Of a stretch of 32,043 nt of DNA, positions 7,581 through 31,055 are shown piece by piece. The notes under the pieces were generated by a model, which was not told where the DNA came from, ran no database searches, and worked only from the letters and a program-made list of their open reading frames with translations. How positions within the stretch are numbered: the stretch's first letter is position 1; each line of letters begins with the position of its first letter. The position numbers and the translations under genes were made by a program. The DNA is from a virus (Duplodnaviria; Heunggongvirae; Uroviricota; Caudoviricetes): the IMG/VR virus record IMGVR_UViG_2713896773_000025; one strand, written 5' to 3'.

Positions 7581-7622
7581 GTCATTACAGCAGGCACTTC
7601 ATAAAGTGCCTGCTGTAATGAC
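7581..7622. repeat. perfect 19-bp inverted repeat with 4-nt loop
   Basis: GTCATTACAGCAGGCACTT cata AAGTGCCTGCTGTAATGAC read directly from sequence; lies between the last early accessory ORF and the gemA RBS. Confidence 0.85.
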
Positions 7623-7641
7623 AACCAACAGGAGAAATATT

Positions 7642-8118
7642 ATGTCCACGCCAGCAAAACGAGGCCTTATAGGTGCAATTAAAGCCGGTCAGGCATATCT
7701 GGGGTGGGATGAGGTAACCTACCGTAGTGTTCTGTCTCGCTTATGCAACGGTAAAACATCATCCACTAAATGCACCCTCGACGAGCTGCAGGCTGTCAGG
7801 GAATATATGCATGACAAGGGTTTTCCTCGCTACTCAGCAAAACACGGTCGACGCCCAAAGGTTGCCAATACGCGCGAGTCAATTCTTTCTAAAATTAACG
7901 CATTACTTGCAGATGCAAAACGTCCGTGGAATTATGCCGAGAAAATGTGCGATCATATGTTTCACGTCAAATACATCGAGTGGTTGACGACTGAACAGTT
8001 AACCAAACTCATGCAGGCTCTCAGCATTGATGCGAGTCGGCGAAAAAAGCGGGAGCGTAATAATGAATCTGGAACAGGTAACGGAGCTGCTGCCATCAGC
8101 AGTGATTCAAATAGCTGA
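7642..8118 (+). CDS. gemA: GemA-like regulatory protein (158 aa)
   Basis: ATG at 7642 with AGGAG RBS; KRGLIGAIKAGQAYLGWDE...YRSVL pattern recalled from the Mu GemA/DUF1018 family; sits immediately before the Mor-like gene. Confidence 0.7.
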   Translation: MSTPAKRGLIGAIKAGQAYLGWDEVTYRSVLSRLCNGKTSSTKCTLDELQAVREYMHDKGFPRYSAKHGRRPKVANTRESILSKINALLADAKRPWNYAEKMCDHMFHVKYIEWLTTEQLTKLMQALSIDASRRKKRERNNESGTGNGAAAISSDSNS

Positions 8119-8497
8119 CCTGATAGGCTTCCCGGCGACCGAGCAGCTTCTTTCTGCTTTTGGTGGCACCACGTTCCCGATAGGTAAAGGCCTCCGCGCT
8201 ATGGGGGCCAGCCGCGCAGCCCTCCTGCGCAATACTATCGGCGATGATAAAACCCAATTACTCATCAAGAATTTCGGCGGAGAAGTTCTCTATTTACCGC
8301 GCTGTGATCGTGCCCTTCGTGAATTACGCAACCGCCGCTTTCTCGCCGAGTTCGCCGAAGTGCGTGAACAAGGTTCATCCTCTCTTATGGCCATGACCTT
8401 TCTTTGCCCTAAGTATGGATTCAGCGATCGTTTTGGATGGCAGTTACTAAGCCAGCACAGACAAAACACATCAATCAATCAACAAGAACTTTTTTAA
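8063..8497 (+). CDS. mor: Mor/C-family transcriptional activator (144 aa)
   Basis: GGEVLYLPR...LRELRNRRFLAEF...YGFSDR resembles the Mor/C core GG.VYIPR...L..DL.I...F.G.N..EL...YG; overlaps the gemA 3' end. Confidence 0.75.
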   Translation: MNLEQVTELLPSAVIQIADLIGFPATEQLLSAFGGTTFPIGKGLRAMGASRAALLRNTIGDDKTQLLIKNFGGEVLYLPRCDRALRELRNRRFLAEFAEVREQGSSSLMAMTFLCPKYGFSDRFGWQLLSQHRQNTSINQQELF

Positions 8498-8510: not shown

Positions 8511-9011
8511 ATGGAGTTTTTAATTGCTTTAATTATATTCGGTGCTTCTGTTGCTGTTTACAAAGATGCTATCACCAATAACATTGCAAGACCTGCCCGT
8601 TGGGGGATTGGTTCAGCATTCATATTCTTCATTGTCATTCCATTGTATCTATTTAAAAGAAAAAAATTAATCGGAAGTGCATTATCAGACTCGGATGATG
8701 CCAGTAGTGTCCAGGGCGGAAAAAATGTTAGCCCCTTATCAGTTTATGTCCTGATGTTCATTTTAGCATTTATTGCCCCAGTGATTAATTTTTACAAAGG
8801 TGATTTACCTGGCTGTGATTCATCCGATGTCCATTCTGTTCTTACAGAGTTGCTGAATGGAGAAAAATTCTCTGAGCCCGCGCAAATGAGTTATGACCGG
8901 GTTAATGCAGTGAGACACTGTAACTTGACTGTTTCTGATAGAGTGTTTTCATATACAGTGAAATGGTACAGTGAAGAGAAAGATCAGTTTGTTGTACAGT
9001 TTGACAACTAA
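8511..9011 (+). CDS. AT-rich membrane protein, candidate moron (166 aa)
   Basis: Three hydrophobic helices plus a roughly 70-aa C-terminal soluble domain; gene is markedly more AT-rich than its neighbours. Confidence 0.6.
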   Translation: MEFLIALIIFGASVAVYKDAITNNIARPARWGIGSAFIFFIVIPLYLFKRKKLIGSALSDSDDASSVQGGKNVSPLSVYVLMFILAFIAPVINFYKGDLPGCDSSDVHSVLTELLNGEKFSEPAQMSYDRVNAVRHCNLTVSDRVFSYTVKWYSEEKDQFVVQFDN

Positions 9012-9013
9012 TT

Positions 9014-9091
9014 CCACTGAACCTCTTCACCTGATTATTCACCTAACCCGATGAAATACTGACGCCATCCCTTTTTAACCGGATGGCGTTA
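9014..9091 (+). promoter_or_regulatory. late-promoter-like element, copy 1: conserved motif CCACTGAACCTCTTCACC (9014..9031) plus hairpin 9060..9091 burying the endolysin start codon
   Basis: Motif is one of three near-identical copies; hairpin arms TGACGCCATCC / GGATGGCGTTA (one G-U pair) with a 10-nt loop; ATG at 9091. Confidence 0.55.
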
Positions 9092-9995: not shown

Positions 9996-10593
9996 CTGGA
10001 AACCGCTGCTCGTCGTCGTGGTTCTGGCAGGCTGCGGGATATGGTTCGGCACCTTCCTCACAGGCAACAAGCTGGACGCTCAGGCGCTGGCCTTCAGCCA
10101 GGAGAAGCAACGCCTGACTGATGGTTTCAGTGAAAAAGAACGGCAGTGGGATCAGGAGAGGCTCAGCGCTGCAAATCAGTATGCAGCTGACCTGAAGGCT
10201 GCACTTGATAAGCAGAACGCCTGGCAGCAGAAAGCGGATGCGCTGACCCGCGAGCTGGCTGAAAAGCAAAAGGCACATGACGAGACTGTTCGCGATCTTA
10301 AAAAGAGGCTTAAAGATGCACTTGATAAAGATGGTCCTGGTTATACCGGCATTGGCCCTGGCGGCCTGCAGCTCTTCCGTGAAGCCTTTGGCTACTCAGG
10401 ATCCGAAAGCCACCCCGCTGGTCAGCATCTGCCAGCCACCGCCAGCGGCGCTCCTGGTCATACCGGCCAGACCACAGGCACCGGTGGCGGACTCTCCCCC
10501 ACTGGAATAGTGTCGTTTTCAGCGGAATACGGCGCATGGTGCCAGCTCATTGAGGGCAGGCTGCAGGCAATAAATGAGTATTACAGGAAGTGA
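9961..10593 (+). CDS. i-spanin, Rz-like (210 aa)
   Basis: ATG at 9961 gives a short cytoplasmic N-terminus, a TM helix (PLLVVVVLAGCGIWFGTFL) and a long charged coiled-coil-like periplasmic region; contains an embedded lipoprotein ORF. Confidence 0.7.
   Translation: MWEAAQKILRVSWKPLLVVVVLAGCGIWFGTFLTGNKLDAQALAFSQEKQRLTDGFSEKERQWDQERLSAANQYAADLKAALDKQNAWQQKADALTRELAEKQKAHDETVRDLKKRLKDALDKDGPGYTGIGPGGLQLFREAFGYSGSESHPAGQHLPATASGAPGHTGQTTGTGGGLSPTGIVSFSAEYGAWCQLIEGRLQAINEYYRK
10316..10510 (+). CDS. o-spanin, Rz1-like lipoprotein embedded in +1 frame of the i-spanin (64 aa)
   Basis: MHLIKMVLVIPALALAAC with a lipobox-like LAAC, Pro-rich mature part and a C-terminal-proximal Cys; entirely inside 9961..10593 in another frame. 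Confidence 0.65.
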   Translation: MHLIKMVLVIPALALAACSSSVKPLATQDPKATPLVSICQPPPAALLVIPARPQAPVADSPPLE

Positions 10594-10844
10594 ACAACAT
10601 CATGACTCTTGATATGGCCTTTCAGATTGCGCTGGCGCTGGCTGCAACCTTCGGCACCATCTGGATACGCCGTCTGCAAAAAGACATTACCGACCTGGAA
10701 AAGGCGGTTGATCGCATCCGGGATGAATACCAGCGCCGTGAGGATGCGAAAAGTAACTACACCGCAATGATGGATGCGATGAGGGAGCTGCGAGCGGCTA
10801 TCGAGCGCATTGATAACAAACTGGACAGGAAACAGGACAAATGA
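10590..10844 (+). CDS. small membrane/coiled-coil protein, Mu-family (84 aa)
   Basis: N-terminal hydrophobic helix then charged helical region; ATGA-type overlap with the i-spanin stop. Confidence 0.5.
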   Translation: MNNIMTLDMAFQIALALAATFGTIWIRRLQKDITDLEKAVDRIRDEYQRREDAKSNYTAMMDAMRELRAAIERIDNKLDRKQDK

Positions 10845-16972: not shown

Positions 16973-17191
16973 ATGCATTACGGGAGCGGGCAACTGTACA
17001 CATTCAAAGCTTTCCTTGATTATTTCACCCCGCAGCAGTGGGTTTTCATTGGCATCTTAGGGGGGCTGGTTATAAAAGTTGCTGAGTGGTTCACTGACCG
17101 ATACTTTGCCCGCAGGCGTCAGTCTGCTAAACCCGATAAGCCGACAACCAAAGCGATCCTCAGCGATAATCCACTGAACCTCTTCATCTGA
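16973..17191 (+). CDS. doubtful 72-aa ORF in the G-I intergenic region
   Basis: Weak RBS; one hydrophobic helix; its 3' end overlaps the conserved late-promoter motif, so it may be spurious. Confidence 0.25.
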   Translation: MHYGSGQLYTFKAFLDYFTPQQWVFIGILGGLVIKVAEWFTDRYFARRRQSAKPDKPTTKAILSDNPLNLFI

Positions 17192-17227
17192 ACCTCCCCG
17201 CAGTGGTGCCGTATCGTCGGCACCATG
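17171..17227 (+). promoter_or_regulatory. late-promoter-like element, copy 2: motif CCACTGAACCTCTTCATC (17171..17188) plus hairpin 17204..17225 ending in the I-gene start codon
   Basis: Stem GGTGCCG / CGGCACC (17205..17211 / 17218..17224) extendable by a T-A pair that uses the A of the ATG at 17225; loop TATCGT. Confidence 0.55.
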
Positions 17228-18340
17228 AAAAAGACACTCATCGCTTCACTCACCCAGGAAATTAACACCGCTACTCCCGGTGTCATTCAGCTCTTTCCGG
17301 CTGGTGAATTCCGCGCCCGTGATGGTCGCCCGACCGAATGCGCCGCCTGGCTGATGACGCGGGAAATTGCAGAGCGCCTTATTGCCGCTGCTGATGCCCG
17401 CGCCACCCCCTATGTCCTTGACTACGAACACCAGACCCTTCGGGCCGCTAAAAACGGTTTGCCTGCGCCTGCAGCTGCATTCTTCAAAAAGCTGGAGTGG
17501 CGGGATGGCGAGGGTTTGTTCGCCATCGATGTCGAGTGGACAGCCGCTGCGGCTGCAATGGTCGAGGCGAAAGAGTATCGCTTTATTTCCCCCGTATTTT
17601 CTTACGACAAAACCGGTCAGGTGCTGGAGTTGCTTAACGCCGCGCTGACCAATACACCAGCGGTGGACGGGATGGAGGAAGTGTTACTTGCTGCCGCCTC
17701 CCTGATGGCCGCGCATTTAACCACAGAGGGTCAGACCGAAATGGATGAAGAATTTCTCAATGAGCTACTGAGCAACCTGCGCTGGATGCTCAATCTGCCA
17801 ACCGCCTCAACGAAAGAAGAGATTATGGCTGAGCTGCAAAAAATCATCACCATGATTTCCAATGGCCAGGGGACTGCAGCGGCGTCGGTCAGTCTGCTGG
17901 ATATCCTGAACCAGAACGCGCAGAGCATCGCCGACCTGTCAGCGAAACTCGACACGCCTGACCCGGCTAAGTGGGTTTCGGTGGAGGTCATGCATTCAGC
18001 CGTTCAGCAGGCAACAGAGCGTGCAGGTGCGGGTAATACCGCCGCACTCGCCACGCAACAGGCTGAAGCGTTGATTACGGTTGCCCTCGGCGACGGTCGT
18101 CTGCTTCCGGCACAGCAGGCATGGGCTGCGTCACTGGCGAAATCCGATCCGGCCAGTCTTACCGCCTTTATCGAAAAAGCGCCAAAGATTGCCGCACTGA
18201 CGACCAGTCAGACTCAGGGGCAACCGCCTGCAGGCCTTCCGTCACACCCGTCACAGGGTGCTGAAGATGATGCGATTGACCCGGCCATCTGCTCCATGAT
18301 GGGCAATGACCCGGAAAGCGTCGCGAAATACCTCAAATAA
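17225..18340 (+). CDS. Mu I-like head protease/scaffold protein (371 aa)
   Basis: Position between G-like and major capsid genes; Ala-rich scaffold-like C-terminal half. Confidence 0.78.
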   Translation: MKKTLIASLTQEINTATPGVIQLFPAGEFRARDGRPTECAAWLMTREIAERLIAAADARATPYVLDYEHQTLRAAKNGLPAPAAAFFKKLEWRDGEGLFAIDVEWTAAAAAMVEAKEYRFISPVFSYDKTGQVLELLNAALTNTPAVDGMEEVLLAAASLMAAHLTTEGQTEMDEEFLNELLSNLRWMLNLPTASTKEEIMAELQKIITMISNGQGTAAASVSLLDILNQNAQSIADLSAKLDTPDPAKWVSVEVMHSAVQQATERAGAGNTAALATQQAEALITVALGDGRLLPAQQAWAASLAKSDPASLTAFIEKAPKIAALTTSQTQGQPPAGLPSHPSQGAEDDAIDPAICSMMGNDPESVAKYLK

Positions 18341-25861: not shown

Positions 25862-27189
25862 GCTGGGAAGATTCATTACAGGATGCCTCATTCAGGGGCG
25901 TCCGCTTTGATGTGGTTAATACCCGTGACAGCGCCAGTCGCGACATTGCGACGTATGAGTATCCCTATGTCGACGGTGGTGATGTTGATGATCTTGGCCG
26001 CAAGCCTCGTAACCTGCGGATGACAGTCCTTTTCTGGGGTGATGATTATGATGTGCGGCTGCAGGCGTTTCTGGCCGCACTGGATACTCGCGGTAGCGCA
26101 GAATTAATTCATCCCGTTTTCGGCTCCATGACGGGCATGCAGTGCATTGAGTATCAGGCATCGCATGAAGCGGAGAACGTTGATTACTGCGTTGTCGAAG
26201 TGGTCTTTATCCAGGGGGGACTTAATCTGCCTTTCTTTGGCAGCGATTTCCCGCTGTCGAAAGCTGATATCGTTTTCAACCAGGCGCAATCCGCTCTGGA
26301 GAAAGCCCAGACGGCCATCGACAATATTCTCTCGCCTCTGCGTACAGCGAAAAAGTGGATGAAAAAAGCGAAATCGCTGGCAACCACGACGCTGAATATG
26401 GTGACCGTGCTTAAGGGGGAACTGACGGGATTTGTCAGTACCACCTCGGATTTTGTTAATTACCCAAAATCGTTCATGAATGACCTGCAGAGTGCGCTGA
26501 GTCTGACGTCGTTTCAGTCCAAATCAAGTGTCAGTAATAATCCAGGAAGCTATTCACAGTCCTCAGACGTTTCCGGCACAGCAGGCATCGTGATGGCCGA
26601 CTGGAAGAATGGCCGTAACAATCTGCAGGATGTGGCCGCATTACCTCAGCAGATAGTGACCGGGAAAAAAACGGTTGCTGTTGCCGTTCCGGCAGGCTCA
26701 TCAACCTCGGATATTACCGAGCTGGTAACGGCGGTAAAAACTCAGGTTGCAATCCAGCTGGCACTTGATGCTTCCGACATACTCAGTGACAGCAGCATCA
26801 GCGATATTCTGTCTCCCGTTGATATTGAGCAGATCACCAACGACACCAGGACGGCCATTCAGGAGGCAATCGACCAGACGCGGGACACCTTTGCTGCTGA
26901 TACGCAAAACCTGAGTGCCGGTGAAACACCTGGTGGCGTGACCTGGCAACCCGTGGTTGAAGGTCTCAAGGATATCGCCCTGACCGTTCAGGAGCTGGGC
27001 TCAGCGGTTATTACCAGCAGACCACCACTGACTACGCGAGTGGTATTGTCCGACACAAACCTGCATTTGCTGGCCCACCTGTGGTATGAGGACTACACGC
27101 GCGCCGCCGAGTTGCTGCGTCTCAATCCGACACTACGTAATCCTAACAATATCAAAGCCGGTGACGTTCTGAATGCCTACTCAAGATAA
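25858..27189 (+). CDS. Mu N-like DNA circularisation protein (443 aa, GTG start)
   Basis: N-terminal ASFRGVRFDV...YEYPYVDGGDVDDLG resembles the DNA-circularisation N-terminal domain; follows the tape measure as in Mu. Confidence 0.72.
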   Translation: MSWEDSLQDASFRGVRFDVVNTRDSASRDIATYEYPYVDGGDVDDLGRKPRNLRMTVLFWGDDYDVRLQAFLAALDTRGSAELIHPVFGSMTGMQCIEYQASHEAENVDYCVVEVVFIQGGLNLPFFGSDFPLSKADIVFNQAQSALEKAQTAIDNILSPLRTAKKWMKKAKSLATTTLNMVTVLKGELTGFVSTTSDFVNYPKSFMNDLQSALSLTSFQSKSSVSNNPGSYSQSSDVSGTAGIVMADWKNGRNNLQDVAALPQQIVTGKKTVAVAVPAGSSTSDITELVTAVKTQVAIQLALDASDILSDSSISDILSPVDIEQITNDTRTAIQEAIDQTRDTFAADTQNLSAGETPGGVTWQPVVEGLKDIALTVQELGSAVITSRPPLTTRVVLSDTNLHLLAHLWYEDYTRAAELLRLNPTLRNPNNIKAGDVLNAYSR

Positions 27190-28390
27190 AGATTCGCAGA
27201 ATACAGTGAGCCTGGTTATTGATGGCAAAATCCATAGTGCATGGAGCCGCTATCAGATTGACTCCGATTTTCTGATCCCCTCCGATGCATGGAGCGTAAC
27301 GCTTGGGCTGCCTGATGGTATTTTCCCTCCGGCCATTAAACGTGGTGTGCCGGTGCTGGTCAGGGTGGGTAATGATGTTGTCATGTCCGGTCGGGTGGAT
27401 GTGGTTCAGCGCCGGGTATCCCGTCAGCAGGTTTCTTTATCTCTTTCCGGTCGCGATGGTGCAGCCGTGCTTGTTGACTGCGCTTCACCCGTTTTTACCT
27501 CCCGCCAGCTCAGTCTTGAAGAGGTGATCGCCCAGGTTGTCAGACCGCTGGGGATAACGAACATCCGCATCGAGGCTGAGTCATCCCTGCGTAATGACAA
27601 GGTCAGCGTGGAGCCCGGAGAACGTGCGTGGGATACCCTTGAGCGTGCAGCTGCTGCACGCGGGTTATGGCCATGGTTTGAGCCAGATGGCACGCTGGTA
27701 ATTGGAGGGCCGGATTACACAAAAGACCCTGTAGCCACGCTTGTTCTGAATCGTGACGGTCGGGGAAATAATGTCCTCGATCTCAGTGACCGGTCATCCA
27801 TTACCGGTGCGTTCTCTGAACTGACAATGCTGGCACAGGGACACGGCCAGGGGAAAAAGTCAGGAAGACTGGAAGTTATTGACGTTGATGATCAGAGCGC
27901 TGAGGCTGAAGACGATGATGATGCCGACGCAATTTATGACAGCACCGGCTCTGCAGAGAATGGCTTTCATGGCTTACGTAGTACCGTTCGCGACAGTACC
28001 GTACCTTTCTATCGTCCGCAGATTATGGTTGCTGGTGATGCTGATAATCAGGCGCAGGTTGATTATCGCGCGAGAAAGGCCATGGCTGACGCCCGTCTGA
28101 ACGGGTTTGATCTGACAGTAATTGTTAAAGGCCATCGCATGGAGAACGGTCAGTTATGGCAACCGGGCCAGCGTATTCGTGTCCGAAGCGAGCCACATGG
28201 CATTGATGACATTTACTTCCTCATGGGAAGAGAGTTTTCAGGTGGTCGTCCAGACAACACCATTACCACCCTGCGGCTCAAAGAGGATGGAATATGGATA
28301 CCGGATGCTTATCCGAAAAAACGCAAATCACGTAAGCGTCGCGCCAAAGTAAATAAAGAGCTGGAGATTATCGATGTGGAACAAAATTGA
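27173..28390 (+). CDS. baseplate hub / Mu P-like tail protein, gpD-like (405 aa)
   Basis: Position and size in the baseplate block. Confidence 0.7.
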   Translation: MPTQDKDSQNTVSLVIDGKIHSAWSRYQIDSDFLIPSDAWSVTLGLPDGIFPPAIKRGVPVLVRVGNDVVMSGRVDVVQRRVSRQQVSLSLSGRDGAAVLVDCASPVFTSRQLSLEEVIAQVVRPLGITNIRIEAESSLRNDKVSVEPGERAWDTLERAAAARGLWPWFEPDGTLVIGGPDYTKDPVATLVLNRDGRGNNVLDLSDRSSITGAFSELTMLAQGHGQGKKSGRLEVIDVDDQSAEAEDDDDADAIYDSTGSAENGFHGLRSTVRDSTVPFYRPQIMVAGDADNQAQVDYRARKAMADARLNGFDLTVIVKGHRMENGQLWQPGQRIRVRSEPHGIDDIYFLMGREFSGGRPDNTITTLRLKEDGIWIPDAYPKKRKSRKRRAKVNKELEIIDVEQN

Positions 28391-28979
28391 CTCTCGTATT
28401 AACACGGCGTTAAACCGTATAAGAAAGGCCTTCAGGGGCGTTTTAATAAGGGTTAACAGCGGTGGTGATATTCAGACCATTCAGGGTAAAGGTCTGGCCA
28501 CTGAGTCTTTGCAGGATGTGGAGATGTTTCAGCAGTACGGTTTTACATCCAACCCGCCCAGGGGGACTAAAGCCATTGTGCTCCCGCTTAACGGGCGCAC
28601 CAGTCATAGCGTGGTGATTGCCACGGAACACGCTGCATACAGGCTAAAGAGCCTGAAAAGTGGTGAGCTTGCCATTTATTCGGATGAAGGAAGCAACATT
28701 ATTCTGAAGCGCGGAAAAATAATTGAAGTAAACTGCGATGAATATATCGTTAATACTAAAAAGCACACGGTGAATACCGAACAACATATTGTTAATACCA
28801 AAACGTATAAAACCACAGCCTCAGAGCGGGCAGATTTTGATACACCATTGCTGAAAGGCAGTAATGAAGTCGCTGACGGCAAGTCTACGCTGAACACCAT
28901 GCGTGAGACTTATGACGGTCACGACCACGACCACGGCGGTGATGCAGGCACAACGCAGAAACCTAATCAGCAAATGTAA
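28374..28979 (+). CDS. baseplate spike protein, gpV-like (201 aa)
   Basis: Repeated YIVNTKKHTVNTEQHIVNTKTYK beta-helix-like repeats and C-terminal HDHDHGG metal-binding-like tip typical of spike proteins. Confidence 0.75.
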   Translation: MWNKIDSRINTALNRIRKAFRGVLIRVNSGGDIQTIQGKGLATESLQDVEMFQQYGFTSNPPRGTKAIVLPLNGRTSHSVVIATEHAAYRLKSLKSGELAIYSDEGSNIILKRGKIIEVNCDEYIVNTKKHTVNTEQHIVNTKTYKTTASERADFDTPLLKGSNEVADGKSTLNTMRETYDGHDHDHGGDAGTTQKPNQQM

Positions 28980-29015
28980 TTTGTGGTAACGTAAGTTCTC
29001 CTTCAAAAGCAATAC

Positions 29016-29077
29016 CCACTGAACCCCTTCACCGATAATTTAAATTTCCATGCCGGTAGTATTACGGCATGGAAATG
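29016..29077 (+). promoter_or_regulatory. late-promoter-like element, copy 3: motif CCACTGAACCCCTTCACC (29016..29033) plus 12-bp hairpin 29044..29076 covering both candidate start codons
   Basis: Stem ATTTCCATGCCG / CGGCATGGAAAT with loop GTAGTATTA; ATGs at 29069 and 29075 are inside the 3' arm. Confidence 0.55.
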
Positions 29078-29419
29078 TTGATTGATCCAACGACCGGCGA
29101 TTATACCGGCGACAGCTCAGACTCTTTAGCGAATGCCGTCTACTTACGGCTGATGACGCCCCTTGGCTCATGGTGGGCTGATCCAACTCTGGGCTCTCTT
29201 TTGCATACACTCCGCCGCGAAAAGGATGTGTCTCGCGTTCAACAACTCGCGGTGCAGTATTCGCGGCAGGCCCTGCAACCGATTATTGACGACGGTCGCG
29301 CCCAGTCCATTTCCGTTACTGCAGAGCACTGGCAAAAAGGCTGGATGCTGCTTCATATCACCGTCACGTCTGCGAGCGGAACGCCGCAGACCTGGAAATA
29401 TCCGGTTAAGGTCAGCTGA
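29069..29419 (+). CDS. baseplate protein, Mu gp46 / GP46-family (116 aa)
   Basis: Size and position before the baseplate J-like gene. Confidence 0.68.
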   Translation: MEMLIDPTTGDYTGDSSDSLANAVYLRLMTPLGSWWADPTLGSLLHTLRREKDVSRVQQLAVQYSRQALQPIIDDGRAQSISVTAEHWQKGWMLLHITVTSASGTPQTWKYPVKVS

Positions 29420-30486
29420 TGCCATTCATTACCAAAAATGCCGCGCAAATACGCACTGACATTCTGCGGGATATCAAAAATCTCCTGCAGTTGTCAGATG
29501 ATACGCTGGGCCCGGACAGCGACTGGTACATCCGGGCATCGAGTGTAGCCAGTGTTGCCGAGGGGCTTTATCAGCATCAGGGATGGATAGTCCGTCAGAT
29601 CTTTCCGGATACTGCTGATTCGGAATTCCTCTATCTGCACGCCCGTTTACGTGGTTTAAGCAAAAAAGCAGCCAACAGCGCCTCCGGGCCTGCCACGTTT
29701 ACCGGCGAACCAGGAGCGGTGGCCGCTGCCGGTCTTGTGTTCAAACGCGACAGTGTTTCGTGGACAACAACCGAAGATATTATTGTCGGGTCAGATGGAA
29801 AATCATCGGTAAACGCAGTGTCTTCTCTGGCCGGAACCACTGGTAACACCACTTCCGTCACATCGGCCACACTGACCACAACACCTGATGGGTTTGACAG
29901 CACAGTGACAGTAGGCCTGATGACTGGCGGAACAGATGAGGAAACGGATGCAGAGCTGCTTGCTCGTCTGCTTGAAATCATCCGCCGACCTCCTGCAGGC
30001 GGCAATAAATATGATTACAAACGCTGGGCGCTTGAGGTATCAGGCGTATCCGCCGCATATGTTTACCCTTTGCGGCGGGGGCCGGGTACCGTTGATGTTG
30101 TGATCACGTCTGCAGGTGGGCTGCCATCTCAGGATGTGATCGACAGGGTGCAGGCTCACATTGACGATGTCCGGCCTGTTACAGCAAAAAACACGCTGGT
30201 GCTCATACCTGTCATCCGTACATTTGACGTCCTCGTGAAGGTATCACTGGAGGGCATCACCCTCGCAGCAGCCAAACAGGCTGTCGCCGGAACGCTGGAG
30301 GACGATGACTCGCGCCGAGAGCCTGGAGTGGCTTTTATTCGCAGCCAGGCGGGGACATTGATTTCTCTAATTCCGGGTATTACCGACTATGACATCGTTA
30401 CACCATCGGCAAATATTCAACCGATAATCGATGCCACGAAAGTCGAATGGCTCAAATTAGGAAACGTTGAGGTAGAGCTGCTATGA
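29419..30486 (+). CDS. baseplate J-like protein, Mu gp47-like (355 aa)
   Basis: Size and position; start overlaps upstream stop. Confidence 0.78.
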   Translation: MPFITKNAAQIRTDILRDIKNLLQLSDDTLGPDSDWYIRASSVASVAEGLYQHQGWIVRQIFPDTADSEFLYLHARLRGLSKKAANSASGPATFTGEPGAVAAAGLVFKRDSVSWTTTEDIIVGSDGKSSVNAVSSLAGTTGNTTSVTSATLTTTPDGFDSTVTVGLMTGGTDEETDAELLARLLEIIRRPPAGGNKYDYKRWALEVSGVSAAYVYPLRRGPGTVDVVITSAGGLPSQDVIDRVQAHIDDVRPVTAKNTLVLIPVIRTFDVLVKVSLEGITLAAAKQAVAGTLEDDDSRREPGVAFIRSQAGTLISLIPGITDYDIVTPSANIQPIIDATKVEWLKLGNVEVELL

Positions 30487-31055
30487 GCTACTTCACGCTG
30501 TTAAATCGTCTGCTGCCACTTGTTTCGTACAGCCCGGGCCAGCCTCTGCTTGATGCATCATTGCGATCTGAATCAGGTGTTTTTGAGACTCTCGATGCGT
30601 CTGCAGGGCTTGTTGAAGGTGGAGTTACTCCATTTTATGCACGCAGCCTTTTGTATGACTGGGAACGCGTCCTGGACCTTACTCCTGCTGAAGGTGCGAC
30701 ATACCAGCAACGCCAGCAGCGTGTACTGGCTAAACTGGCTGAAGTCGGTGGTCTCAGTATTCCGTACTTTACTCAGTTGGCAAGCAACCTTGGCTACATC
30801 ATCACAATTGATGAACCGCAACCTTTCAGGGCGGGAGTTGGCCGCGCCGGTGATCGCCTCTGGGTTGAAGACATTATCTGGGTCTGGCGCGTCAATATTC
30901 AGAACTCAGGAACTCAATCCTATCGCTTTCGCTCAGGCAGTTCAGCTGCAGGTGAGCGCCTGACAACGTTTGGTGATCCGATTATTGAAGACGTCTTCCG
31001 TGATCTCAAACCAGCCCATACATTTTGCTACTTCGCATATCAGGAGAATGAATAA
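30483..31055 (+). CDS. tail protein, Mu gp48-like (DUF2313-like) (190 aa)
   Basis: Position between baseplate J-like gene and tail fibre; ATGA overlap. Confidence 0.68.

What the first reader, a model, noticed from the sequence alone, without database searches (positions are those of the whole stretch)
29016..29077. Copy 3 of the motif-hairpin element, inside the baseplate block, with the longest stem (12 bp) covering two candidate start codons
Motif CCACTGAACCCCTTCACC at 29016..29033, then ATTTCCATGCCG gtagtatta CGGCATGGAAAT. Both in-frame ATGs (29069, 29075) of the gp46-like gene lie in the 3' arm. The 89-bp gap between the spike gene and gp46-like gene is otherwise unexplained in a tightly packed operon. 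The element sits between the Q-like and V-like genes rather than before the P-like gene, so late-operon boundaries here may differ from canonical Mu.
Basis: seen in the sequence. Interest (0 to 1): 0.62.

Follow-up and report, generated by a model that had tools for sequence, protein, structure and literature searches.

The report
Leaderless late promoter inside a hairpin
This is the third activator-dependent late promoter of a Mu-like prophage; it seems to start the baseplate-wedge mRNA exactly at its start codon, and it lies inside a conserved hairpin that could only fold in RNA read through from upstream.

Summary

The element is a Mor/C-type late promoter. The motif contains a dyad, TGAA-N4-TTCA, centred 31 nt before a -10 hexamer (TAGTAT, 29057-29062). 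That places the dyad at -43.5, the geometry of phage Mu's C- and Mor-dependent promoters. The box sequence differs from Mu's. A Mor-family activator gene lies at 8027-8497.

The -10 sits in the hairpin loop. Its A(-11) and T(-7) are invariant in 22 distinct relatives. The gp46 start codon lies exactly 6 nt after the hexamer, at the predicted +1, so the mRNA is probably leaderless. gp46 also has the weakest Shine-Dalgarno match of 23 gene starts checked.

The stem is kept by compensatory changes; one pair tracks ATG versus GTG starts. Its 5' arm lies upstream of the predicted start site, so it could fold only in read-through RNA, where it buries the start codon. The other two copies follow the same logic.

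The promoter call is well supported. Leaderless initiation and translational insulation are inferences. No prior description was found in the searchable papers. I rate it a new variant of a known kind, of moderate interest.

The parts
8027..8497 (+). Gene for the Mor/C-family late transcription activator, the presumed reader of the motif. It lies just after a GemA-like gene (7606-8118).
   Evidence: PF08765 Mor, E = 1.8e-8, 34.8 bits against a cut-off of 24.9. phrog_836 'late transcriptional activator', E = 1.7e-39. Weak direct similarity to Mu C: 27% over 75 aa.
28374..28979 (+). gp45-like baseplate spike gene. It is the last gene of the upstream transcription unit, and transcripts from upstream read out of it into the element.
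   Evidence: PF06890, E = 1.7e-27. No convincing + strand terminator lies between 17225 and 28979.
29016..29033 (+). Conserved 18-nt activator box, at -53 to -36 relative to the predicted start site.
   Evidence: Three copies in the window, 0 of 100 shuffles. Invariant across 22 distinct relatives apart from the positions left free in the search pattern.
29020..29031 (.). Dyad TGAA-CCCC-TTCA inside the box. Its centre is at 29025.5, which is -43.5.
   Evidence: There are 31 nt from the dyad centre to the first base of the -10. Mu Pmom has the same 31 nt from the centre of TTAT-N6-ATAA to TAAGAT. Mu C binds a dyad centred at -43.5 (PMC2582627).
29044..29055 (+). 5' arm of the hairpin, at -25 to -14. 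It lies in the promoter spacer, upstream of the predicted start site.
   Evidence: It co-varies with the 3' arm.
29057..29062 (+). -10 hexamer TAGTAT, inside the hairpin loop.
   Evidence: A hexamer of the form xAxxxT begins exactly 23 nt after the box in all three window copies. Positions 2 (A) and 6 (T) are invariant in 22 of 22 distinct gp46-type relatives, while the other loop positions vary.
29065..29076 (+). 3' arm of the hairpin, at -4 to +8. It contains the gp46 start codon.
29069..29071 (+). gp46 start codon. It is also the predicted transcription start (+1 = A29069), which would make the mRNA leaderless.
   Evidence: It lies 6 nt after the -10, as do 36 of the 78 elements with an xAxxxT hexamer at 23 nt. 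Its anti-SD complementarity is the weakest of the 23 gene starts checked. PGAP and GenBank annotators chose the equivalent start in relatives. Homology to Mu gp46 begins at residue 16.
29069..29419 (+). gp46-like baseplate wedge gene, the first of a chain of overlapping genes (29419, 30483, 31055).
   Evidence: PF07409, E = 7e-20.
9014..9091 (+). Copy 1, the lys-type late promoter. Box 9014-9031, -10 AATACT 9055-9060, hairpin 9060-9070 with 9081-9091. The 3' arm holds the SD-like GGATGG and the A of the endolysin ATG (9091). The predicted start, about 9067, falls inside the 5' arm.
   Evidence: -19.6 kcal/mol (z = -3.7) when folded from upstream, against -6.7 from the predicted start. A compensatory G-C to A-U change is seen in Trabulsiella.
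17171..17227 (+). Copy 2, the I-type late promoter. Box 17171-17188, -10 TATCGT 17212-17217, which is exactly the loop. Arms at 17203-17211 and 17218-17226. The ATG of the I protease gene is at 17225, 7 nt after the -10.

Best explanation
The element is the third late promoter of a Mu-like prophage.

How the promoter works. A dimer (or higher oligomer) of the phage's Mor/C-family activator (gene 8027-8497) binds the box at 29016-29033. The dyad TGAA-N4-TTCA in that box is centred at -43.5. The activator recruits sigma-70 RNA polymerase to a promoter that has a -10 (TAGTAT, 29057-29062) but no usable -35. Transcription starts at or within a nucleotide of A29069. That is the A of the gp46 start codon, so the wedge and tail-fibre operon begins with a leaderless mRNA.

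What the hairpin does. The 12-bp inverted repeat is not part of that mRNA, because its 5' arm lies at -25 to -14. It can fold only in RNA that arrives from upstream, such as read-through from the I-type promoter at 17171. In that RNA it buries the SD-less start codon. Translation of gp46, and probably of the overlapping genes coupled to it, would then depend on transcription having begun at this promoter.

Shown versus inferred.
- Shown from sequence and comparison: the box, the dyad geometry, the conserved -10, the fixed -10-to-start-codon spacing, the lack of an SD, and stem covariation.
- Inferred: which protein binds the box, the exact 5' end, leaderless translation, and the insulating role of the hairpin.
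For: 1. Three copies lie in front of lys, I and gp46, the first two at the positions of Mu's Plys and PI. Chance is excluded.
2. The hexamer is xAxxxT exactly 23 nt after the box in all three copies. A(-11) and T(-7) are invariant in 22 distinct gp46-type relatives, which were chosen by the downstream peptide and not by the hexamer.
3. Dyad centre to -10 is 31 nt, identical to Mu Pmom and matching the published -43.5 (PMC2582627). SuMu has a different dyad, GGAAG-N2-CTTCC, at the same distance.
4. A Mor-family activator gene is present. The box changes as the activator diverges: Klebsiella phage ST405-OXA48phi1.1, 72% identical activator, box CCACTGAAGCCCnTCAAC; SuMu, 37% identical, GGAA/TTCC half-sites.
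5. None of the three sites is picked up by a -35/-10 consensus scan, which fits activator dependence.
6. The start codon is 6 nt after the -10 in 36 unique elements and 7 nt after it in 11 I-type elements. This spans lineages from AT-rich to GC-rich and includes SuMu gp46 (TATCCT + 6 nt + ATG).
7. gp46 has the weakest anti-SD match of 23 starts checked, at -3.3 kcal/mol. The 5' end of the predicted leaderless RNA is unstructured, z = 0.0.
8. Stem covariation: the core pairs (alignment columns 38-45 with 55-62) are about 100% paired. There are double changes at 5 pairs within columns 38-46, and U-A to C-G tracks ATG to GTG starts. The covariation score was reached by 0 of 500 shuffles. Slid controls give 31-49% paired cells against 79% observed. 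All 31 distinct gp46-type elements fold with z < -2, median -4.8.
9. The same logic holds at copy 1: the 3' arm covers the SD and the AUG, the predicted start lies inside the 5' arm, and the fold is -19.6 against -6.7 kcal/mol. At copy 2 the loop is exactly the -10.
10. The hairpin is always tied to the -10 and start-codon region, although 36 nt of free intergenic DNA lie upstream of the box.
Against: - No transcript 5' ends are available, so +1 is inferred from the -10 alone.
- Five lineages start gp46 with GTG. From my own knowledge of the E. coli literature, not checked here, leaderless GUG mRNAs are poorly translated.
- The I gene product and the downstream scaffold are needed in quantity, and a leaderless first cistron is a weak way to express them.
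- Strand-specific support for an RNA hairpin is only suggestive. G-U outnumbers A-C by 30 to 4 cells, but that is roughly 11 to 4 independent events. Sense and antisense folding energies are about equal (17 to 16).
- The I-type stem is short and shows little covariation.
- In one lineage of lys-type elements (box ending CTTCAAC) the hairpin is followed by a U-run, and 6-7 nt of its 5' arm might remain in the late transcript. 'Read-through only' is therefore not clean there.
- It is not obvious why blocking an SD-less codon would need a 12-bp stem.
Confidence: 0.6

Rival explanations
1. The hairpin is an RNA element serving the upstream operon. It would act as a 3'-end stabiliser, an exonuclease barrier, or a weak U-less terminator or pause for the head-tail transcript. 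Its overlap with the promoter would be incidental.
For: It is a GC-rich, stable stem at the end of a long transcription unit. In related phages the hairpin at the lys position is a genuine terminator with a U-run, as in SuMu and the lineage whose box ends CTTCAAC.
Against: No U-tract follows it here, and the terminator scan does not call it. A stabiliser could sit anywhere in the gap, including the 36 free nt before the box. Yet in every lineage the stem is locked to the -10 and start-codon region, and its 3' arm tracks the start codon.
Confidence: 0.13
2. The inverted repeat works at the DNA level. It could be an operator for a dimeric protein over the -10. It could be a cruciform or a non-template-strand hairpin that tunes promoter opening, perhaps tied to replication-coupled late transcription.
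For: The repeat is centred on the -10 hexamer in all 22 aligned Enterobacterales-type gp46 elements, at copy 2, and at the MP38 orf19a element. Sense and antisense folding energies are similar. Mu late transcription is stimulated by the beta-clamp and needs a nick in the non-template strand (PMC12867686).
Against: The arms co-vary instead of being conserved, and they differ between copies 2 and 3 of the same phage. That argues against one protein operator. The lys-type repeat is not centred on the -10 but downstream of it, over the SD and AUG. In SuMu gp46 the repeat is centred well downstream of the -10. G-T wobbles persist in several lineages, whereas A-C mismatches are singletons.
Confidence: 0.12
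3. Transcription starts upstream of the hairpin, for instance from GATAAT at 29034-29039. The hairpin would then be a 5'-UTR structure of the late mRNA itself, acting as a 5' stabiliser or a regulated translational switch over the start codon, like the mom translation-inhibition structure opened by Com.
For: In this window GATAAT directly follows the box. Start-codon sequestration resembles Mu mom/com.
Against: That hexamer is not conserved. Relatives have TGAATC, GCGAAT, TTATCC, TCTTCA or CTGTCC at that position. It would also put the dyad at about -20, unlike any Mor/C promoter. The loop hexamer, by contrast, keeps A(-11) and T(-7) invariant. No com-like gene is annotated at the right end of the near-identical E. 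coli prophage.
Confidence: 0.08
4. The hairpin is a chance palindrome or a relic with no function of its own.
For: None specific.
Against: z = -5.0. All 31 distinct relatives fold with z < -2. Compensatory changes occur at five pairs.
Confidence: 0.02

Closest known systems
[quoted passage not shown]
   Same: A Mor/C-family activator is encoded just upstream of the lysis genes. The promoters have a -10 but no -35. An imperfect dyad is centred at -43.5, with the same 31 nt to the -10 as in Pmom. There are several copies heading the lysis, head and tail/baseplate operons (PMC2582627, PMC12867686).
   Different: The box sequence is unrelated: TGAA-N4-TTCA within CCACTGAACCYCTTCAYC, against TTAT-N5-6-ATAA. 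Only one Mor/C-family gene was found among the ORFs tested, which covered only part of the window. The third promoter sits between gp45 and gp46, not inside N. Going by the annotated promoter features, Mu's lys and I transcripts appear to have leaders of roughly 20 nt, and ribosome-binding sites are annotated before both genes. Here the I and gp46 start codons sit at the predicted +1.
Leaderless mRNAs of temperate-phage genes, such as lambda cI from PRM (from my own knowledge, not checked here)
   Same: The start codon is at the transcription start, there is no Shine-Dalgarno sequence, and the 5' end is unstructured.
   Different: The classic cases are repressor genes from lysogenic promoters. 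Here the candidates are the first genes of late structural operons driven by an activator-dependent promoter. The 5' end is not mapped.
Mu mom translation-inhibition structure relieved by Com
   Same: A stem sequesters the start codon of a late gene in its mRNA.
   Different: No Com-like protein or Com-binding hairpin is evident. Relief here would come from where transcription starts (the 5' arm is left out), not from a protein.
Intrinsic terminators that insulate late genes from early transcription, such as the annotated terminators before Mu Plys and PI
   Same: The hairpin sits at the boundary between two transcription units. In SuMu and the lineage whose box ends CTTCAAC, the equivalent lys hairpin carries a U-run.
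   Different: Copy 3 has no U-tract and is not called a terminator. It overlaps the promoter's -10 and start site instead of preceding the activator box.

Membership tests
Mor/C-dependent promoter (phage Mu type) | A Mor/C-family activator is encoded by the same phage | tested here: met
   Window 8027-8497: PF08765 at 34.8 bits (cut-off 24.9) and phrog_836 at E = 1.7e-39.
Mor/C-dependent promoter (phage Mu type) | A recognisable -10 hexamer without a typical -35 | tested here: met
   TAGTAT at 29057-29062. A and T at hexamer positions 2 and 6 are invariant in 22 relatives. At -35 the sequence is CCGATA, and the consensus scan calls no promoter there.
Mor/C-dependent promoter (phage Mu type) | An imperfect dyad-symmetry element centred at -43.5 | tested here: met
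   The centre of TGAA-N4-TTCA is at 29025.5, 31 nt before the -10. Mu Pmom has the same spacing (PMC2582627). This depends on the inferred +1.
Mor/C-dependent promoter (phage Mu type) | The Mu C box consensus TTAT-N5-6-ATAA | tested here: not met
   The box is CCACTGAACCCCTTCACC and has no TTAT/ATAA dyad (PMC12867686). This is not a Mu C site but a site for a different member of the family.
Mor/C-dependent promoter (phage Mu type) | Transcription depends on the activator and on sigma-70 | not testable with these tools
   Needs in vivo reporter assays or in vitro transcription.
Mor/C-dependent promoter (phage Mu type) | Location at the canonical Mu positions (before lys, before I, inside N before P, before com/mom) | tested here: inconclusive
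   The lys and I positions match. The third copy is between gp45 and gp46, not inside N. The com/mom position lies beyond the window.
Leaderless mRNA | The transcript's 5' end coincides with the start codon | not testable with these tools
   Inferred only. The start codon is 6 nt after the -10 here and in 36 unique elements, and 7 nt after it in 11 I-type elements.
Leaderless mRNA | No Shine-Dalgarno sequence, and AUG preferred as the start | tested here: met
   The anti-SD duplex of -3.3 kcal/mol is the weakest of the 23 gene starts checked. The start is ATG in the window. Five related lineages use GTG, which is unfavourable for leaderless initiation in E. coli.
Intrinsic (Rho-independent) terminator | A GC-rich hairpin followed directly by a U-tract | tested here: not met
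   The hairpin is present, but the tail is GTTGATTGATCC, and the scan does not list it.
Known structured RNA family (Rfam) | A match at the gathering score | tested here: not met
   There are no Rfam hits in the window. The best sub-threshold hit over the element is 17.6 bits against a gathering score of 41.5.

The most novel reading that the evidence does not exclude
A design principle may be shared by a large group of Mu-like phages: Enterobacterales prophages, Haemophilus phage SuMu, and possibly Pseudomonas D3112-like phages. In it, Mor-family activators fire promoters placed so that the first late gene is expressed from a leaderless or truncated-leader mRNA. Each promoter is embedded in a hairpin whose 5' arm lies upstream of the start site. 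The hairpin then forms only in RNA that began elsewhere, and there it blocks translation or terminates transcription. Where transcription began would decide whether the operon's first gene is translated. That would insulate lysis and virion genes from early, middle or host read-through, which is a real hazard for phages that insert at random into host genes.
Probability: 0.35. Interest if true: 0.7.

Novelty: new variant of a known kind. Interest (0 to 1): 0.55.

Why it matters
If correct, four things follow.

- It defines the recognition box ([T/G]GAA-N4-TTC[A/C] at -43.5) and the late regulon for a widespread, unstudied branch of the Mor/C activator family. That lets late operons be annotated in hundreds of Mu-like prophages.
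- It moves the third late-operon boundary to the gp45/gp46 junction. The baseplate hub and spike would then belong to one unit, and the wedge and fibres to another.
- It predicts leaderless late structural mRNAs in enterobacteria, which is unusual.
- It suggests a compact way of tying translation to promoter choice without any extra protein. This is directly testable with 5'-end mapping and a few reporter constructs.

Tried and rejected
- Megablast of 27000-31000 against the phage collection found nothing. The nearest isolated phages were found only by protein search.
- Most of the 68 genome-contig hits to the 18-mer are chance matches in unrelated taxa. About 280 are expected by my own estimate from the size of the collection. 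Only Enterobacterales-type contigs with Mu-like context were used.
- GATAAT at 29034-29039 was rejected as the -10 because it is not conserved.
- An ECF-sigma-like reading of TGAACC as a -35 was considered and dropped. No consistent downstream element was seen on reading the three copies.
- Terminator reading: there is no U-tract.
- Rfam: no family matches.
I-type elements gave only a 5-bp core.
- Comparing sense and antisense folding energies did not discriminate RNA from DNA.
- My first stem-finder missed the window's 9-nt loop, so the stem was counted by fixed register instead.
- Literature searches for the motif string, for leaderless Mu-like late genes, and for Mor-homologue binding sites returned nothing relevant. 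Margolin et al. 1989 (PMC209851) is not held.

Full report
**1.

The window is a Mu-like prophage. Pfam hits cover GemA, a Mor-family protein, a GH19 endolysin, the Mu G-like and I-protease genes, and gp44, gp45, gp46, gp47 and gp48 homologues. A stretch spanning the element is 96% identical to a prophage in E. coli FDAARGOS_1303.

At the reported coordinates the sequence is as described:
- CCACTGAACCCCTTCACC at 29016-29033
- ATTTCCATGCCG at 29044-29055
- a 9-nt loop
- CGGCATGGAAAT at 29065-29076
- in-frame ATGs at 29069 and 29075

The gap after the gp45-like stop codon is 89 bp. The motif has three copies, at 9014, 17171 and 29016, against 0.02 expected. The hairpin folds at -22.4 kcal/mol with z = -5.0.

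**2.

In each copy a hexamer of the form xAxxxT begins exactly 23 nt after the motif: AATACT, TATCGT and TAGTAT. The composite pattern TGAA-N4-TTCA, then 26 nt, then A-N3-T, matches only these three sites in 32 kb. Chance expects 0.01.

The motif contains the dyad TGAA-N4-TTCA. If the hexamer is taken as -12 to -7, the dyad centre falls at -43.5. Mu's C and Mor proteins bind imperfect dyads centred at -43.5, in promoters that have a -10 but no -35 (PMC2582627). In the Mu sequence itself, the centre of the Pmom dyad TTAT-N6-ATAA lies the same 31 nt before its -10.

A Mor-family gene lies at 8027-8497, directly after a GemA-like gene as in Mu. A -35/-10 consensus scan calls none of the three sites, as expected for activator-dependent promoters.

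The box sequence is unrelated to Mu C's TTAT-N5-6-ATAA (PMC12867686). This is a different specificity within the same mechanism.

**3. Relatives**

Scanning species-representative genomes and IMG/VR for the 18-mer gave 142 unique instances.
- 64 are mostly chance hits in unrelated taxa.
- 78 carry xAxxxT at 23 nt and lie mostly in Mu-like contexts: Trabulsiella, Kosakonia, Serratia, Erwinia, Yersinia and many viral contigs of widely differing base composition. A handful of these could still be chance matches.
- Of the 78, 36 have an ATG or GTG exactly 6 nt after the hexamer; those examined open a gp46-like protein (MEMLIDP..., VDNLLDP..., MADALLD...).
- 11 have ATG 7 nt after the hexamer; those listed are I-protease starts (MKK...).
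- 31 are lys-type with a short leader.

An ungapped alignment of 22 distinct gp46-type elements, chosen by the peptide and not by the hexamer, shows hexamer positions 2 (A) and 6 (T) invariant while the other loop positions vary. Those are the two bases that sigma-70 reads most stringently.

The Klebsiella phage ST405-OXA48phi1.1 has an activator 72% identical. It carries a variant box, CCACTGAAGCCCnTCAAC, three times with identical geometry. Its annotated gp46 and I starts fall on the predicted +1.

Haemophilus phage SuMu has an activator 37% identical. It uses GGAAG-N2-CTTCC, again 31 nt from a -10. Its gp46 gene is TATCCT, then 6 nt, then ATG.

So the box changes as the activator diverges, while the geometry stays fixed.

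**4. The start codon sits at the predicted start site**

A -10 hexamer followed by 6 nt puts +1 on the A of ATG 29069. For gene I, 7 nt puts it at 17224 or 17225.

Several observations fit a leaderless mRNA:
- There is no room for a Shine-Dalgarno sequence. gp46 has the weakest anti-SD complementarity of the 23 gene starts checked in the window (-3.3 kcal/mol), and I is also low.
- The first start, 29069, is the conserved one. Lineages with GTG there have AAT or AGA where the window has its second ATG.
- Homology to Mu gp46 and Mu I begins at residues 16-19, which leaves no alternative start.
- The predicted leaderless 5' ends are unstructured.

Mu itself is different. Ribosome-binding sites are annotated before lys and I, and from the annotated promoter features the leaders appear to be roughly 20 nt. 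Mu's PP lies inside gene N.

I therefore infer, but cannot show, that the I and gp46 operons here begin with leaderless mRNAs. The GTG starts in five lineages count against this, because leaderless GUG is inefficient in E. coli (my own knowledge, not checked here).

**5. The hairpin**

Fixing the register from the window's stem, the core pairs (alignment columns 38-45 with 55-62) are essentially always paired in 22 distinct sequences.
- Changes on both sides occur at five pairs within columns 38-46.
- One pair switches from U-A to C-G exactly where the start codon switches from ATG to GTG.
- The covariation score and the percentage paired exceed all 500 shuffles.
- Sliding the partner columns drops pairing from 79% to 31-49%.

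All 31 distinct gp46-type elements fold with z < -2, median -4.8. The stem is therefore selected as a structure, not as a conserved sequence. That argues against a protein operator.

Non-Watson-Crick cells are mostly G-U (30) and rarely A-C (4). The G-U variants are shared by several sequences, while the A-C ones are singletons. That amounts to only about 11 versus 4 independent events, and sense and antisense folding energies are equal overall. Strand-specific support for an RNA hairpin is suggestive, not decisive.

**6. Why I read it as a read-through-only structure**

With +1 at 29069, the 5' arm lies at -25 to -14 and is not transcribed from this promoter. Only the 3' arm (-4 to +8) lies at or next to the 5' end of the mRNA.

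The same holds at the other two copies.
- Copy 2: the loop is exactly the -10, the arms are 17203-17211 and 17218-17226, and the ATG is at 17225.
- Copy 1: the hairpin is not centred on the -10. The 5' arm (9060-9070) straddles the predicted start at about 9067. The 3' arm (9081-9091) holds the SD-like GGATGG and the A of the endolysin ATG. Folded from upstream it is -19.6 kcal/mol (z = -3.7). Folded from the predicted start it is -6.7.

The common denominator across the three copies is not 'centred on the -10'. It is that the 3' arm covers the translation start region and the 5' arm lies mostly upstream of the start site.

In SuMu the lys hairpin is a textbook terminator. Its 5' arm begins immediately after the -10.

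No convincing + strand terminator separates the I-type promoter from the element, so read-through RNA is expected. In that RNA the hairpin would hide the SD-less gp46 start. The next three gene starts (29419, 30483, 31055) overlap the preceding stops, so blocking gp46 could damp the whole chain.

The stem is always locked to the promoter and start-codon region, even though 36 free nt precede the box. That speaks against a simple mRNA 3' stabiliser.

**7. Rivals**

I keep the following at low weight:
- a stabiliser, pause or weak terminator for the upstream operon
- a DNA-level role at the -10; the clamp and nick dependence of Mu late transcription in PMC12867686 makes a non-template-strand structure conceivable
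- an upstream start that would put the hairpin in the 5' UTR

Rfam has nothing matching.

**8. What is known, and novelty**

Mechanistically this is a Mor/C-type late promoter. It meets the family's architectural criteria and fails only the Mu C box sequence. It is therefore a site for another family member, not a Mu C site.

Full-text searches found no earlier description of any of the following:
- the box
- the gp45/gp46 promoter position
- the fixed spacing from the -10 to the start codon
- the promoter-embedded hairpin

Much of the older Mu literature is not in the searchable library.

**9. Verdict**

New variant of a known kind. The promoter assignment is well supported (about 0.85). Leaderless initiation is likely (about 0.6). 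The insulating role of the hairpin is plausible (about 0.4). Interest is moderate: ordinary as 'a late promoter', but with an unusual and directly testable architecture that appears widespread among Mu-like phages.

Noticed in passing
window 16973-17191 (+): A 72-aa ORF resembling the P21 holin S (PF04971, E = 2.4e-9) sits between the G-like gene and gene I, far from the endolysin cluster. Motif copy 2 overlaps its last codons. In the near-identical E. coli prophage, PGAP instead calls a minus-strand hypothetical gene there. A terminator-like hairpin lies inside it at 17029-17042.
   Followed up: partly
window 8511-9011 (+): A 166-aa ORF with no Pfam or PHROG hit lies between the Mor-family gene and the lys promoter. 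An ORF of similar size sits at the same place in Klebsiella phage ST405-OXA48phi1.1, but there is none at that place in SuMu.
   Followed up: partly
L190 about 9020-9056 (phage Mu PI, record 18019-18055): Mu's own PI region has an inverted repeat, CTGCTCA...TGAGCAG, that straddles the annotated start region. Its 3' arm runs into the SD of gene I. This may be the same read-through-only logic in Mu itself.
   Followed up: no
L192 about 10040-10120 (Haemophilus phage SuMu, upstream of the amidase gene): The -10 TAAAGT is followed at once by CTCTTTAAG-tatca-CTTAAAGAG-GCTTTTTTT and then ATG. This is a textbook terminator whose 5' arm would be left out of a transcript started at this promoter. The SD-like AGAGG lies in its 3' arm.
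   Followed up: partly
L193 about 10700-10760 (Pseudomonas phage MP38, upstream of orf19a): GCCGCCA-cga-TGGCGGC lies directly before ATG, with CACGAT as a possible -10 six nt before the start codon. This is the same hairpin and leaderless geometry in a D3112-like siphovirus whose activator is about 30% identical. The upstream box was not identified.
   Followed up: no
L081, L083, L092, L149 and similar IMG/VR loci (lys-type elements whose box ends CTTCAAC): In this lineage the hairpin after AATACTGAA is followed by a U-run and then a strong GGGGGA SD. It looks like a terminator in the leader of the late lysis operon. Whether late transcripts escape it depends on the exact start site.
   Followed up: no
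L004 and L068 (contig NZ_SZPQ01000001.1, labelled Martelella alba BGMRC 2031): A genome labelled as an alphaproteobacterium carries this Enterobacterales-type Mu-like prophage with exact motif copies. This may be a taxonomic mislabel or a surprising host range.
   Followed up: no
window 9018-9060, 17175-17217, 29020-29062: The bases right after the box are often TGA(A/T)T. With the last box base they read CTGAAT, a weak -35-like TTGACA remnant 18 nt from the -10. Copy 3 of the window lacks it and has GATAAT instead.
   Followed up: partly
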